Of a stretch of 64,000 nucleotides of DNA, positions 17,330 through 56,918 are shown piece by piece; the stretch's first letter is position 1, and each line of letters begins with the position of its first letter. Position numbers and translations under genes: made by a program. Below the pieces are notes generated by a model. It was not told the origin of the DNA. It was given only the letters and a program-made list of their open reading frames with translations, and did no database searches. Origin of the DNA: Octopus vulgaris (Eukaryota); the NCBI GenBank assembly GCA_951406725.2, contig OX597822.1, forward strand, positions 108,996,001 through 109,060,000. The letters run 5' to 3'.

Positions 17330-17535
17330 GACCTCGTGTGTACCGTTGGCGATTTTTTATCCTATGTCTTCCCTTCTCGGGATCTTTCCTTCTCCTATGC
17401 TTCCGACGAAGAGCTCCGCTCGAAACGTTCAACCCTCCTTCTTCCCTTCTTTCCTGAGCGTCCAATAATACTATATCTGTTCCACGTCCTCGCGTTGTTG
17501 TGTTTTTTTGTGCTTTTCTTGTTTGGATTAACTAT
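17330..17535 (+). mobile_element. Short HHR-bearing (Penelope-like terminal) element, family H1; core mutated
   Basis: 'cCGACGAagagctccgctcGAAAcgtt' at 17403-17429; homologous to 24345-24550 (-). Confidence 0.65.
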
Positions 17536-17716
17536 ATATATTTCTTCCTCCCTCTTTATTCATATGTATATATATATATATACATCTCCTTTCTTCCTCT
17601 CTCTCTCTTTATATATTCATCATATTCATATATATTTTTATATATATATATATAAATGTGTGTGCGAATATGTATATATATATATATACTTTATTTTAAG
17701 CAGCAGAAAAATCAAC

Positions 17717-17763
17717 AAAATCTGTTACTCTGAGTTTCTCGTTGCCGTTCATCAGACAGTTTT
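17717..17763 (-). ncRNA. Minimal type-I hammerhead ribozyme motif
   Basis: Minus strand: aaaactgt-CTGATGA-acg gcaa cga-GAAA-ctcagag-TA-acagatttt; stem I ctgt/acag, GNRA-capped stem II, quasi-palindromic ACTCAGAGT stem III, GUA site. Confidence 0.75.
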
Positions 17764-18245
17764 TGCTAGAATGGAACATATATATTAATTCAATCTATAC
17801 TCTTACAAACGCTACACTTTTAAAAAGAAATGGACTTGTTTGATTGGCCCTTTAGAAAAAAAAAAAAAAAAAAAAAAAAAAAAACGGTCAATCTTCGAGC
17901 GATAAACAAAAAGGTCAAAAATATATGTATATATATATAAAAACTTATAAAAATTATAAAATCCGAGGAAAATACCGAGGAAAAAACCTGTTGCCGTTAA
18001 TGAAGACAGTACAAATTAATGCATAGAAATTAAACCTGTTATAAATACTGCAATACATATTTATATTAAAATCCACATATATATATCAACATACACAAAA
18101 GGATGCGCGTAAACGCCATACATACATATACAGACGTATGAATATGAATCTAAATTATACACATAAAAGCATGTGTACATATATTCACGCAAACCGTCTA
18201 TATATATATATATATATATATATATATATATATATATATATATAA

Positions 18246-18458
18246 CGGGAAGCTTTATGAAAATAAACAAAAGACGAAGGCAGGTGGAAAACAAACGAAC
18301 AATTGTATTAGTATGGCGCTCAGGAAATATAAATAAAACAAGTCTTTAACGTTTCGAGCCTACGCTCTTCAACAGAAAGATACAGAGAGAGAGAAAAACA
18401 CAGAAAGAAGGAGAGAAAAAAAAATGCGTGCAGTAGCTAACGAATCAACATGGCGATC
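18246..18458 (-). mobile_element. Short element family H2 with HHR-like motif (core CUGUUGA)
   Basis: rc of 18343-18380: tcttt-CTGTTGA-agagc gtag gctc-GAAA-cgTT-aaaga; homologous to 56728-56918; lies between (TA)n arrays. Confidence 0.65.
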
Positions 18459-20558
18459 TATATATATATATATATATATGTATATATATATATAGATATA
18501 TAGATATATATAGATATACATATATATATATATACATATATATACACACACACACACATATATATATATATATATATATATATATATATATATATATATA
18601 TATATACTTATACTTAACAAAAGCCGTTCTCTCTTGAGAATAGTGCAAGCTAAAGTCAGCTGATTTTCTAGGTTACTTGAAACGTGTGAACAACATGTGG
18701 TTTATTGATGACTATTCATATAATGACCTTTATATGAAAGATTGTTTTGATTTTACGTTTCATTCTAAGATATTTTAAAGGGACTTTCTGGAACTTCCGC
18801 GCATAATCCACATAACCGCCTGTCTGTTTCGCTATCACACACTCTTAGAGACTCACTCCCTTTTGCTTGCTGTCCGTATTATTTATCGTTCATACTCTAT
18901 CTTCCTCTCTCTACCGTCATTTCTTTCTACATTCACATTCAATTGTGTCTATCTTTCTCTATTACACACACACACACACACACACACACACACACACACA
19001 CACACAAAGATATGGATGAACATCATGCGTCTTATAACCCCGCCACAGGCATGGTCATACATATACGCATAAAGAAACATATACATACGAGTAAGCATAT
19101 CAGAATATATATCTATCGATCAATCAATAGATATCTCTCTCTACCTATCTATGTACCTCGCCCACTTCTGCATTGTCTTTCTTTCTCCCTCTCTCTCTCT
19201 CTCTCTCTCTCTCTCCCTATATATATATATATATATATATATATATACATACATACATATATATATATATATATATATATATATATATATATATATATAT
19301 ATACATATATACAAATTTATACGCATATTTATATATATAATTAATTACACATTTATATGTGTATATACATACATAAATATATGTATGATTTAATATATAA
19401 ATGTATATACATATATATCTATATATATGCAAATATAAATATATATGTAGATATATATGTATATACATGTATGTAAATATATATATGCATATATATATAT
19501 ATATATATATAACATATGTATATATATATACATATATGTTTATACATATACATGTATATATATATGTATATTTTTATGTGCATATATATATATATATATA
19601 TATACATATATAAATATATATATACGTATAGGAATTTATCTGTGTATATATACATATATATATATATATATATATATGTATATATTTATATATATATATA
19701 TAATGTACATGCGTATATATATTATAGATATATTCGCACACACATTTATATATATATATATATAAATATATATGAATATGATGAATTTGAGGCACTTTTA
19801 CCCCTATAGACACACACACACACACCCACATATATATATATATATATACAGGTCAGTGTCTCCTCAAATTCATAAGCGTCACTCAGGCTTATCACACATT
19901 TCGCATAAGACACGTGCCTGCTCGAATCATTGAAGTTTCTCCGCTTTATTTCTAACCTCAAATGGCTTTTTTTTTTTAATCTAGCATTATGTCTTTCTGT
20001 ATTTCTAAGTTATGGGAAAAATTAAAGCAAGTTTGCATAACACAACTGATATTTACACACAGCCGGAATGAATAACAGCAATCTGTCTGACTATCGCATG
20101 TACTTGTGACAAGACATGCCAGCTAGTGTTTTACACCTATCATACCTGTTGGTATTAGCCAGAGTAGCTGGAAAATGTTTCGTTCCTTTAAGAACGAGAC
20201 TTTTCATAGATTGGAATTTAAAAACTAATCTCTATCGAAAATTATTGTTTCAAGAAAACATTGATAAATCCTCGGCTGTAATTCCTAAGCCGATTCAGGT
20301 ACGTGTGAACCATATCGAGAAAATGAATGATACTTTTTGACACAGAGCACCTCTAAGACGAAAACATGACGCTGAACGAAAATAAATGAAGAGCAGCTAG
20401 GTTCAATAATTCTCATTAGCGGGCTGCAATCATCTACTTGAAGTCAGTATTAAATCAGCTTGCAAATACACGTCTACTTTACTAAATTAATACACGAGCT
20501 AAGCCCGAAGAGCCCAAGTGTCGCAGTCGACACTGTTATATATGTATATATATACATA

Positions 20559-20880
20559 TCAGGTCATCCAATAAGTTCTGTCCGAATTTTGAATAAAGAA
20601 AACAAGTGATCAAATGTTATATTTACGTGAAATTTAATCACCAATGTACTTTCCTTAATGATCTATGCCCTCCTTTAATCTATTTACAAACCTTTTTATT
20701 CCTTCAATGTAAAACACTTTTGGTTTCAAAGTGAAGAACTCTGAAATGTCAGTTTCGACCTCCTCCTGTCTTGCGAAAGTTATGCCCCCCAAATGATTAT
20801 GTAAACTACGAAACAAATGGTAGTCTGAAGGGGTAAGATCGAGAAGATAGGGTGGATGAGAATTTTTTTTCCCAAACAAG
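20559..20880 (-). mobile_element. Tc1/mariner (mariner family) transposon 3' fragment, transposase pseudogene
   Basis: Translation 'HPPYLLDLTPSDYHLFRSLHNHL...FYIEGIKRFVNR' matches the mariner HPPYSPDLAPSDYHLF motif; terminal 'TA|tcaggtcatccaataagtt' is TIR-like. Confidence 0.9.
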
Positions 20881-54995: not shown

Positions 54996-54996
54996 T

Positions 54997-55580
54997 CCAG
55001 ACACTATTTTTGAAGGATGTTAGACAAAAAATCATCGATATCACTATCTCAATCGACCTAAATTTATCTATCAAGACATACCAAAACACAGAGCAAGTAT
55101 AAACATCTTGAAATATAAATTGGCGAAATGTAGAACAAGAATAAACCAAAACCTGTTGTCATAGGCGCCTTATGAATGATAACAAAAGGGGATAATTGCT
55201 ACGTAAACCAGATTACAGGAAATTTAAAAATGGAAGAAATTCAAAACATAGTGCTCATGGGAACTGATCATATCCTACATAAAATATTATCTATGTAATC
55301 CCCCAAATATTTTAAACCGTAAACAGTGTCAAATTACTTTTATATGTACAAAACAGCAAACAAATTTTACTGACATCTTAGCATCAGACTATCATCTTAT
55401 AATCAAATTCCTTTCAAAACAAACTTCTAATTTACTTAAGTTTTGACAGATATTCTCTGCAAATATTTTGTGCAAAACACCTTGTACATAACACCAATTT
55501 GAACTACTAACTTCTTGTCTCTTGAGGTCTCTTGGTGAAACTAGGAGTCAACTTGCACAAGTACATAGTAAAAGTCAAAC
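54997..55580 (+). mobile_element. R4/Dong-type RLE retrotransposon 3' end, decayed, ending at (AAT)n
   Basis: 'PD...IIDITISID...SKYKHLEI...PVVIGAL...EEIQNIVLMGTDHILHKILSM*', then 3'UTR. Confidence 0.75.
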
Positions 55581-55785
55581 ATAATAATAATAACAACAAC
55601 AATAATAATAATAATAATAATAATAATAATAATAATAATAATAATAATAATAATAATAATAATAATAATAATAATAATAATAATAATAATAATAATAATA
55701 ATAATAATAATAATAATAATAATAATAATAATAATAATAATAATAATAATAATAATAATAATAATAATAATAATAATAAAAATAA
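55581..55785. repeat. (AAT)n array, ~200 bp
   Basis: Read directly from sequence. Confidence 0.95.
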
Positions 55786-56132
55786 TGACAACGTGTCTCT
55801 AAAAGAAATGGAGAAACTTTCAAAATACAAAGACCTGGAAATAGAGGTAACCAGAATGTGGAATCTAAAAACAGAAACAATTCCTATCATAATAGGTGCA
55901 TTAGACATGATAAAAAAATATTCTGGCAAAAACATAACAAAAAAAAACAGGACTTACAAACATATATAACATACAGAAAATTGCACTACTGGGCACTGCA
56001 CACATCCTACGCAGAACACTTTCCATACAATAACCATCAGAACATCACAACAAATCACAGCACATACCCAAGGCACACAGAGCTGCGCTCGGTAGTGAAG
56101 TGAAAGCACGTTAAAAAAATAAAACTACTGAA
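55786..56132 (+). mobile_element. R4/Dong-type RLE retrotransposon 3' end, better preserved, flanked by (AAT)n
   Basis: 'NVSLKEMEKLSKYKDLEIEVTRMWNLKTETIPIIIGAL...IQKIALLGTAHILRRTLSIQ*', typical of the RLE C-terminus. Confidence 0.85.
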
Positions 56133-56727
56133 TAATAATAATGATAATAATAATAATAATAAAAATAATATTAATATTAATAATGATAAATAGTAATAGT
56201 AAAGAGTCATAAAACTAGATAACTAAAAAAGTAAATAATAAATCAGTTTGTTAAATATAGCTAAATTGACAGAAATGACAAAAATTTTGCTAGGAGGAAA
56301 GGCAAAATCTACACATTGGGGACGATCGGAATATGTCATGTAGCCACGATCAGCATGTTAATCAACAAATTCCAGAGTCCCCTGTCTTGATATTGACACT
56401 TTTATTTCACAAAAGGGGAAAAATAACAGAACAAAGGAAAACGTAAAATACAAATGATGTTTATATTAACATCATTTGTAAAATCACACACCAATACCCA
56501 AATCAACGCAGCTACTCAGACAAAGAAAGATGTGGGGCAAGCACACTAACACTTATATATAGGCGTATGCTAGTCTGTATATATGTATCTATAAACATAC
56601 ATAATTACACAGCACTTTCACGCATACATGTATATACAGAGAGAGAGAGAGAGAGAGGGGAGAGAATGAGAGAGAAAGGGAAAGAAAGAAAGAGAGATGG
56701 AGATAGATATGTAAATAGGTAGCTATA

Positions 56728-56918
56728 TAGGGAGAGTTTACGAAAACAACAAAAGACGAAGACAGGTGGTATACAAATCAAGCAGATATATTAGTATAAC
56801 GCTCAGGAATTGGAAAAGTATTTTACGTTTCGAGCCTATGCTCTTCTACAGAAAGGGACACAGAAAAAAAAACAAGGAGAGAAAAAATGTGTGTAGTGGC
56901 TAAAGATCTAGCATAGCA
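56728..56918 (-). mobile_element. Short element family H2 with HHR-like motif (core CUGUAGA)
   Basis: rc of 56821-56857: cttt-CTGTAGA-agagc atag gctc-GAAA-cgTA-aaa; homolog of 18246-18458. Confidence 0.65.

What the first reader, a model, noticed from the sequence alone, without database searches (positions are those of the whole stretch)
17330..56918. Unusual density of hammerhead ribozyme motifs from several unrelated short elements nested in (TA)n arrays
Seen: at least six near-canonical type-I HHRs (17717-, 21050+, 24442-, 32686+, 38975-, 39519-) plus variant or decayed ones (17403+, 18343-, 28599-, 56821-). Their stems differ in sequence but all share a self-complementary stem III (ACTCAGAGT, ACGATCGT, AACGTT, ACATGCATGT, ACTGATCAGT, ATTGCAAT). 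Known: minimal HHRs with palindromic loop III are typical of Penelope-like elements and cleave as dimers. Inference: roughly one motif per 6-10 kb would imply a very large, diverse ribozyme-bearing retroelement population that uses TA microsatellites as its niche.
Basis: partly seen in the sequence, partly recalled or inferred. Interest (0 to 1): 0.75.

Follow-up and report, generated by a model that had tools for sequence, protein, structure and literature searches.

The report
Hammerhead-laden Penelope retroelements in TA repeats
Sampled DNA of this animal genome holds a hammerhead (self-cutting RNA) motif roughly every 10 kb, carried by Penelope-type jumping genes and by short repeats that likely ride on them into TA microsatellites; the system is of a known kind, but its commonest young family has one normally fixed catalytic letter changed, and whether it still cuts is untested.

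Summary
Confirmed. All ten motifs are present, plus an eleventh (39762-). A fold descriptor finds 5 in the window and 38 in 800 kb sampled blind genome-wide; shuffles give 0 and about 1. With decayed copies: 82 per 800 kb, about 290,000 genome-wide; the window is not clearly denser (P=0.11). 18375- and 17755- are truncated ends of young autonomous Penelope-like elements (Neptune-type and Hydra). Three others are non-coding retrozyme-like units. 3' ends lie near (TA)n (46 of 70 within 200 nt, random 12%); 5' ends less often (22 of 70). This is the published PLE/retrozyme hammerhead system at unusually high density. One oddity: the dominant Neptune lineage has U at core position 6 (17,224 exact copies against 204 with A), while the rest of the motif is conserved, and copies were made mostly from uncut RNA. 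Cleavage is untested. This scan has noted the same system before, in this genome and others, and A6U in another genome.

The parts
17323..17532 (+). Family A copy (Neptune-related terminal repeat). Hammerhead C3 17403, U4C core, base 17 at 17429, first stem I pair broken; 3' end at a short TA run
17688..18199 (-). Family C: 5'-truncated 3' end (about 510 bp) of a very young Hydra-clade PLE. Hammerhead C3 17755, base 17 at 17726; both ends at (TA)n; 99.4% identical to intact copies over the 171-bp end
18245..18459 (-). Family B1: solo 3' pseudo-LTR of a young Neptune-type PLE. Hammerhead C3 18375 with fixed A6U core, base 17 (U) at 18348; TA arrays on both sides; 98-99% identical to most full-length copies
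20955..21257 (+). Family G copy. Hammerhead C3 21057, long stem II, stem III ACGAUCGU, base 17 at 21135; no ORF link shown
24346..24549 (-). Family A copy. Hammerhead C3 24472, canonical core, one stem II mismatch, stem III ACGU, base 17 (U) at 24446; 3' end at (TA)n
28575..28862 (-). Older relative of family C with an internal inverted duplication. Decayed hammerhead C3 28635 (U4C; U16.1 changed); ends at a (TG)n tract
32493..32856 (+). Family D: 1.2 units of a non-coding ~350-bp retrozyme-like repeat (64-bp terminal direct repeat, ~50-bp deletion). Hammerhead C3 32705, 10-nt palindrome, base 17 at 32739
38823..39179 (-). Family E: part of a young non-coding 505-bp retrozyme unit. Direct part 39046-38823 plus an inverted copy of the 3' end 39044-39179; hammerhead C3 39035, base 17 at 38982; TA at both outer ends
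39293..39590 (-). Family F: 5'-truncated copy of a ~580-bp unit with a terminal repeat, joined to a family H copy. Canonical hammerhead C3 39575, base 17 at 39524
39591..40077 (-).
40269..40748 (+). Second, head-to-head family H copy; keeps the GAAA and stem III half, while the core half is deleted
56724..56935 (-). Family B2 copy (sister subfamily of B1). Hammerhead C3 56851 with A6U core, base 17 (A) at 56824

Best explanation
The eleven motifs are type I hammerhead folds in the 3' terminal repeats of Penelope-like retrotransposons (PLEs) and in short non-coding repeats; all were likely inserted by PLE endonuclease/reverse transcriptase priming at (TA)n, and the ribozymes are predicted to cut slowly and only as dimers, if at all. 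SHOWN: family B is the pseudo-LTR of a Neptune-type PLE and family C that of a Hydra PLE. D and E are non-coding units found as partial tandems or arrays, often with an inverted 3' end; F is a unit with a terminal repeat. 3' ends are sharp and lie at TA, 5' ends are ragged. INFERRED: the GIY-YIG nuclease nicks (TA)n and reverse transcription starts at a fixed internal RNA site. In B this site is a 7-nt UAUAUAU patch that could anneal to the target; in C there are two sites 71 nt apart. Synthesis usually aborts after 100-500 nt, leaving solo hammerhead-bearing ends, and priming from both nicked strands would give the head-to-head pairs. D, E and F probably borrow the same enzymes, from tandem or circular RNA. 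The template was mostly uncut, so most solo copies are likely inert passengers. In the masters, the palindromic helix III would form only between two motifs, so that tandem transcripts are processed to unit length.
For: Null tests: 38 hits in 80 blind 10-kb blocks against 0-4 (mean 1.0) in 10 shuffles and 1 in reversed DNA; pattern controls 0. ORF link, B: 28 of 30 loci picked only by the endonuclease protein carry the B repeat on the same strand about 280-830 nt downstream. 8 of 13 long-frame loci have two contiguous B repeats 4.4-4.6 kb apart around a 1,021-1,214-codon frame; one such frame hits RVT_1 (E 6e-8) and GIY-YIG (E 0.008, under the cut-off). ORF link, C: a 3,341-bp unit with RWK, DKT and CxCX5C motifs. 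TA: 46 of 70 motifs within 200 nt 3' against 11.9% of random sites, 22 of 70 on the 5' side. 22 of the first 30 pattern hits on contig C1 have (TA)4 starting 94-135 nt after C3. Internal tandem copies of the B and C repeats run on into element sequence, not into a long TA array. Head-to-head C pairs: one end at TA and the other with a 71-nt tail in 5 of 5 scorable pairs (a sixth had one end unscored); 22 of 23 distinct C ends fall into these two classes. Covariation in 33 distinct A/B lineage rows: stem I pair 4 is CG 16, GC 5, AU 3, UG 1, unpaired 8; covariation score 0.133 against 0.063 shuffled, 0 of 500. B1 and B2 differ at 2 of 37 motif positions, both of them free positions (N7 and base 17), against 107 of 133 identity in the flanks. 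For E and G the predicted lowest-energy two-strand fold forms the intermolecular helix III. D and E units: longest ATG frame 29 and 47 aa, circular-fold z -8.1 and -4.0. 27 of 35 A/B copies start upstream of C3 and 0 of 35 within 4 nt of the cleavage site, in line with Frangieh 2024 (PMC11167929).
Against: No cleavage or expression data: no run on record as RNA held the element. No ORF was found linked to G or H, nor to the window's A subfamilies; only a related A subfamily runs on from a Neptune ORF, through a 2.9-kb AC-rich tract, in one locus (L246). No empty target site was seen, so TA as target rather than an expanded tail is inferred. The covariation rows were chosen by a pattern that fixes G10.1-C11.1 and GAAACGU, and they are related; the tool warns that related rows can beat shuffles. 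Lowest-energy dimer folds for A, B1 and F were not the hammerhead fold. The two halves of the genome sample differed (26 and 12 descriptor hits), so totals are rough. Enzyme sharing by D, E and F rests on insertion anatomy only.
Confidence: 0.87

Rival explanations
1. The U6 motif of family B, and perhaps most of these motifs, no longer cleaves. It is kept as an RNA structure or protein-binding signal in the pseudo-LTR, or has drifted with the pyrimidine bias of the element's sense strand. This rivals the catalytic step only, not the PLE origin.
For: An A6C change gave kobs under 0.1/min in a natural hammerhead (Perreault 2011, PMC3088659, passage). B1 also has U at base 17 and only a 4-nt helix III. 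U6 lets the core pair with A15.1-G16.2 in a predicted rod fold. No insertion starts at the cleavage site (0 of 35). Catalytic mutants did not affect PLE insertion in vitro (PMC11167929).
Against: Across 34 lineage representatives C3, G5, G8 and A9 never change, while positions 4, 6 and 7 vary and base 17 is A, U or C (G in one singleton). That is the pattern hammerhead chemistry allows. U6 has been kept through subfamilies with all four bases at N7.
Confidence: 0.4
2. The TA arrays are tails seeded by the elements (slippage on a short UA patch during or after insertion), not pre-existing targets.
For: TA lies at 3' ends about twice as often as at 5' ends (46 against 22 of 70). B carries its own 7-nt TA patch at the junction.
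Against: 5' sides are also enriched over random (31% against 12%). Family C joins TA at a point where its own sequence continues CAUAUUAC. Seven unrelated families share the habit. (TA)n preference is reported for Hydra and Naiad and linked to the Neptune linker (PMC8557442). Later expansion of the arrays is still likely.
Confidence: 0.12
3. D, E and F are satellites that grow by DNA-level unequal exchange from stray pseudo-LTRs and do not move through RNA.
For: Tandem arrays of 98-99% identical units exist. Li 2026 discusses local amplification from PLE termini.
Against: Copies are dispersed over most large contigs, young (94-98% for E), end at TA at fixed points of the unit, and often carry an inverted 3' end like the PLE copies.
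Confidence: 0.08
4. Chance matches in low-complexity DNA, or a local cluster with a host function.
For: The genome is AT-rich and full of microsatellites.
Against: Shuffled and reversed controls are near zero. Each of the seven families has many dispersed copies. The window is within the genome-wide range (P=0.11).
Confidence: 0.01

Closest known systems
Minimal type I hammerheads of PLE pseudo-LTRs (Cervera & de la Pena 2014, PMC4209133; parts 1-2 of 4 read: abstract, results, discussion, start of methods; supplements not seen)
   Same: Type I fold, extra base between 9 and 10.1, palindromic 15.2-16.2/loop 3, many divergent families per genome, mostly solo copies from truncated PLEs, opposite-strand pairs, U3-A8 core variant (seen here in L017/L021).
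   Different: Scale: they report about 9,000 in Xenopus tropicalis and 4,000 in coelacanth; one superfamily here has 34,128 exact pattern matches (descriptors differ). A family-wide A6U core is not mentioned in the parts read.
Hydra-clade PLEs, incl. Hydra-1_Obim (Craig et al. 2021, PMC8557442; passages, section 11, supplement rows read)
   Same: Family C has RWK, DKT, CxCX5C, CxxC and CxH motifs, no CCHH, a terminal hammerhead and (TA)n insertion. An octopus Hydra family with (TA)n preference is already listed there.
   Different: Unit of 3.34 kb (theirs generally under 3 kb); tail of 71 nt against the 30-40 bp described; many copies 99% identical.
Neptune-type PLEs (as defined in Craig et al. 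2021)
   Same: RT plus C-terminal GIY-YIG with CCHH, CX4CxxC linker, DKG, pseudo-LTR partial tandems, TA bias.
   Different: Hammerhead core CUGUNGA. Clade assigned by motifs only; not separated from Nematis by a tree.
Animal non-LTR retrozymes (Cervera & de la Pena 2020, PMC7229834, passages; Li, Clavereau & Pollet 2026, 10.64898/2026.07.22.740005, parts 1-3 of 5, supplements closed)
   Same: Non-coding tandem units of 350-580 bp with one type I hammerhead each, GC under 50% (measured for D and E), occurring beside PLEs.
   Different: Circular RNA not shown here. The copies carry PLE-style inversions and TA ends. Axolotl's up to 120,000 motifs lie in 28 Gb, against an estimated 130,000 descriptor-intact motifs in 2.8 Gb here.
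Poseidon PAc of Anolis (Frangieh et al. 2024, PMC11167929; passages and second half of main text read)
   Same: Two internal RT start sites defining a tail, AT-rich target, uncut RNA as insertion substrate.
   Different: Canonical core; different clade; shown biochemically there, only inferred from footprints here.

Membership tests
PLE-type type I hammerhead | CUGANGA and GAAA..UH boxes in type I order with helices I and II | tested here: met
   Met for families C-H and part of A; family B has U6 and many A copies C4.
PLE-type type I hammerhead | Palindromic minimal helix III | tested here: met
   All seven window families at consensus level. Dropping the palindrome rule changed strict hits only from 16 to 20 in 400 kb.
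PLE-type type I hammerhead | Extra base after A9 and G10.1-C11.1 pair | tested here: inconclusive
   Met in A and B; F has the pair without the extra base; C, D, E, G and H have a mismatch at the base of helix II.
PLE-type type I hammerhead | Covariation in stems | tested here: met
   A/B superfamily only; rows preselected by pattern.
PLE-type type I hammerhead | Invariant A6 (family B) | tested here: not met
   17,224 copies with U against 204 with A.
PLE-type type I hammerhead | Self-cleavage as a dimer | not testable with these tools
   Only folding predictions.
Neptune-type EN+ PLE (family B) | Single ORF with RT then GIY-YIG, DKG, CX2-5CxxC linker, CCHH | tested here: met
   (1,072 aa from the putative start Met in L141).
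Neptune-type EN+ PLE (family B) | Pseudo-LTRs in partial tandem, each with a hammerhead | tested here: met
   8 of 13 long-frame loci.
Neptune-type EN+ PLE (family B) | Phylogenetic placement in Neptune rather than Nematis | not tested
   No labelled reference proteins were at hand.
Hydra PLE (family C) | RWK, DKT, CxCX5C, CxxC/CxH, no CCHH | tested here: met
   L194 frame read against section 11 of PMC8557442; 1,074 relatives among 7,996 scored, the best 120 at 43-58% identity.
Hydra PLE (family C) | (TA)n insertion and terminal hammerhead | tested here: met
Hydra PLE (family C) | Generally shorter than 3 kb | tested here: not met
   Unit 3,341 bp; a stated tendency, not a diagnostic.
Non-LTR retrozyme (D, E, F) | Tandem non-coding units of a few hundred bp with one type I hammerhead each, GC under 50% | tested here: met
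   E trimer with 505-bp period, D partial tandems. F shows a terminal repeat only; its coding capacity and GC were not computed.
Non-LTR retrozyme (D, E, F) | Expressed as circular and linear monomer RNA | not testable with these tools

The most novel reading that the evidence does not exclude
This genome may have one of the highest hammerhead densities of any animal (about 100 remnants and 45 intact folds per Mb, dozens of families). Its most successful young Penelope lineage may run on a working natural CUGUNGA (A6U) hammerhead, a tuned-down or protein-switched ribozyme whose U6 locks the monomer in an inactive rod. Near-identical intact elements, with and without A6 in related subfamilies, would be a natural experiment on whether PLEs need ribozyme cleavage at all.
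Probability: 0.3. Interest if true: 0.6.

Novelty: new member of a known kind. Interest (0 to 1): 0.38.

Why it matters
The role of the hammerhead in Penelope-like elements is open: Craig 2021 asks whether it merely parasitises them, and Frangieh 2024 found it dispensable in vitro. This genome offers two young, intact autonomous families, several retrozyme-like families that appear to use the same route, and an estimated 10^5 insertion footprints. One lineage has amplified to more than 17,000 copies with a changed catalytic core. That makes the question cheap to test by cleavage assays and an end census. Three searches of the held library listed no hammerhead survey of a cephalopod genome. A 2026 octopus repeat annotation lists 31 recently active PLE families and has no occurrence of 'ribozyme' (PMC13282606, passages). 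The biology itself is published, so the surprise for a specialist is moderate.

Tried and rejected
Rfam at E<=10: the 150 listed matches were microsatellite hits to miRNA and similar models; no use. The first search for family F fetched the neighbouring family H instead; it was repeated with the right stretch. Expression: no RNA holder listed; the runs laid were contigs with RNA status guessed, so no ends or levels could be read. Intron idea: a 74-nt GU..AG stretch ending inside the family B core, with an AG-free pyrimidine tract upstream. No such joint was seen in four RNA-guess runs or in four other runs, and the whole sense strand is pyrimidine-rich, so the idea is unsupported and dropped. 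One search listed no other letter at position 6 in runs from four other organisms, but it also listed none at N7, which does vary, so it is not counted. The +31-nt class of B 3' ends is an internal duplication, not a PLE tail. A search with the part of B downstream of the cleavage site returned nothing (common words skipped), so 5' ends were counted in the 800-kb sample only. A flank tree needs 5 changes between A6 and U6 and is too weak to date the change; that set was enriched on purpose with A6 copies. Permuted hammerhead descriptors: none in the window. A tandem double-hammerhead idea for one sampled family failed. Luense et al. 2017 is not held, so A6U may be in print there or in unseen supplements of Cervera 2014. 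Searches for A6U and CUGUNGA-type strings and a word-start search of the Craig supplement found nothing relevant, but these are weak tests. No folding or complex jobs were run.

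
Full report
Setting. The window is G000:C9:108996001-109060000, in a 2.80-Gb animal assembly of 227 contigs, about 33% GC and dense in microsatellites. It looks octopus-like to me; that is recalled, and no call names the organism.

The observation. All ten motifs are in the sequence. A strict descriptor (canonical core, optional base after A9, palindromic helix III) finds 3 in the window against shuffle means of 0.03-0.08, and 16 in a first 400 kb of blind 10-kb blocks against 0-1. 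A second descriptor, which folds stem II and allows listed core variants, finds 5 in the window (0 in 30 shuffles) and 38 in 800 kb (0-4 in 10 shuffles, 1 in reversed DNA). Of those 38, 19 have the canonical core; collapsing arrays and one inverted pair leaves 26 insertion events. The blocks were 80 round-number positions on contigs C1-C29, chosen blind but not randomly; the two halves gave 26 and 12 hits. Counting decayed copies by homology to all motifs found gives 82 in 800 kb, one per 9.8 kb, about 287,000 genome-wide (bootstrap 214,000-375,000). The window's 11 is within range (P=0.11). The sample holds 20 families, 12 of them seen in one block only; 39 clusters appear among all loci held (a few singletons there may be false). 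One exact pattern for the A/B superfamily matches 34,128 times, with 0 for the reversed control.

What the elements are. The eleven motifs belong to seven families. Family B (18375-, 56851-): a blind block (L040) held a 5'-truncated ORF ending in a CX4CxxC linker and a GIY-YIG/CCHH nuclease, followed by the B repeat and (TA)n. Of 30 loci picked by that protein alone, 28 carry B downstream on the same strand. Of 13 loci chosen for long open frames, 8 have two B repeats flanking a frame of 1,021-1,214 codons. One such frame hits RVT_1 above its cut-off and GIY-YIG below it. The window copy is 98-99% identical to most of these. Family C (17755-, older relative 28635-) is the terminal repeat of a 3,341-bp element whose ORF has the Hydra motifs of Craig 2021; its best 40 genomic matches are 99% identical. 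Family A (17403+, 24472-) is about 70% similar to B. One A subfamily runs on from a Neptune-type ORF in L246, but none of 24 A copies had a same-strand PLE ORF close upstream, and most begin about 75-85 nt upstream of C3. D (350 bp) and E (505 bp) are non-coding, fold better than shuffles as circles, and occur as partial tandems or arrays with inverted 3' ends. F has a terminal repeat about 580 bp apart. G and H show no ORF link.

TA microsatellites. Leaving out two arrays, 46 of 70 motifs have (TA)5 within 200 nt on the 3' side and 22 of 70 on the 5' side, against 11.9% of random sites. Among the first 30 pattern hits on C1, 22 have (TA)4 starting 94-135 nt after C3. Inside tandem elements the repeat continues into element sequence; B has a 7-nt TA patch at the join, C does not. 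So the long arrays are not templated by the element. C ends fall into two classes, flush with TA (12) or with a 71-74-nt tail (10), of 23 distinct ends, and 5 of 5 scorable head-to-head pairs have one of each. It fits the two internal RT start sites of Frangieh 2024. TA preference is in print for Hydra, including an octopus family, and for Naiad. No empty site was examined.

Is the ribozyme under selection? In 33 distinct A/B lineage rows the fourth pair of stem I covaries (CG 16, GC 5, AU 3, UG 1, unpaired 8), and the covariation score beats 500 of 500 shuffles and all slid controls. The rows were chosen by a pattern that fixes part of stem II and GAAACGU, two of 36 cluster representatives were left out as truncated duplicates, and the rows are related. 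C3, G5, G8 and A9 are invariant there, while 4, 6, 7 and 17 vary. B1 and B2 differ at 2 of 37 motif positions, exactly N7 and base 17, against 80% identity in aligned flanks. Predicted two-strand folds give the intermolecular helix III with a hammerhead-like frame for E and G, helix III with rival pairings for C and D, and non-hammerhead folds for A, B1 and F.

The oddity. With the family B loop, CUGU-N-GA occurs 17,224 times and CUGA-N-GA 204 times. All four bases occur at N7, and they sort partly by subfamily. The A6 copies are partly single changes inside U6 subfamilies and partly older, diverged subfamilies. Of the first 30 A/B hits on C1, 18 have U6, 6 have C4, 1 has both and 5 are canonical. 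U4C is a known natural variant and A6C is known to be slow (Perreault 2011, passages). I found no A6U in the texts I could search, but Luense 2017, which as I recall reports very many PLE-linked variants, is not held. This scan has noted a fixed A6U in another genome (e1-9559914), which I saw only after finding it here. In the 800-kb sample 27 of 35 A/B copies begin upstream of C3, 8 downstream, none within 4 nt of the cut. The copied RNA was thus mostly uncut, as Frangieh 2024 reports in vitro. I put catalysis by the U6 motif, slow or protein-assisted, at somewhat better than even; a kept structure without cleavage is the main rival.

Mechanism, shown and inferred. Shown: motif anatomy, family structure, ORF linkage for B and C, sharp TA-adjacent 3' ends, ragged 5' ends, inversions, two end classes. 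Inferred: nicking of (TA)n by the GIY-YIG domain, internal priming, early abortion, twin priming for head-to-head pairs, use of the same enzymes by D, E and F, and dimer-dependent cleavage in tandem transcripts. Not tested: any RNA or activity.

Verdict. The system is the published PLE pseudo-LTR and non-LTR retrozyme hammerhead system (PMC4209133, PMC7229834, PMC8557442, Li 2026), here at a density well above the counts in those papers (descriptors differ; schistosomes may be as dense, recalled). New member of a known kind, with one variant core worth an assay. The scan has reported this system before, in this genome (e1-8669363, e1-8672319) and in others.

Noticed in passing
L258:8020-8420 (G000:C9:60508020-60508420); window 13605-13723 (-): A head-to-head pair with a non-circularly permuted (type SGC) hammerhead fold: 2 hits in 800 kb, 0 in two shuffles. 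Relatives occur in several other loci; the window holds only a 3'-end fragment without the ribozyme. Matches earlier notes from other genomes.
   Followed up: partly
L011/L312 (G000:C1:20002100-20004770), L268, L271: Young retrozyme arrays met by chance in blind blocks: 7 units of about 359 bp in two back-to-back runs between TA tracts, 5 units of 535 bp, 2 units of 360 bp.
   Followed up: partly
L017:8152, L021:96, L087 about 1200: Families with the U3-A8 core covariation described by Cervera 2014; the L087 motif lies downstream of another Neptune-type nuclease frame.
   Followed up: no
window 1-340 and L203:7974-10000: The window starts inside a head-to-head insertion of a second Hydra-type PLE.
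   Followed up: partly
window 34845-36284 (-): Broken LINE-type reverse transcriptase frames, by recalled motif likeness only.
   Followed up: no
family A copies, e.g. window 17323 and 24549: Most family A copies start within about 10 nt of one point 75-85 nt upstream of C3, which could mark a transcription start in the pseudo-LTR or a SINE-like master.
   Followed up: partly
G000:C1:1-5017021: The first 100 A/B pattern matches lie in 5.0 Mb (one per 50 kb) against one per 82 kb genome-wide, a hint of enrichment near contig ends.
   Followed up: no
window 12248-12550 and 23065-23380; 51108-51333, 59705-59929 and others: Further dispersed repeat families in which my descriptors found no hammerhead, some beside (TAGA)n or (TA)n tracts.
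   Followed up: no
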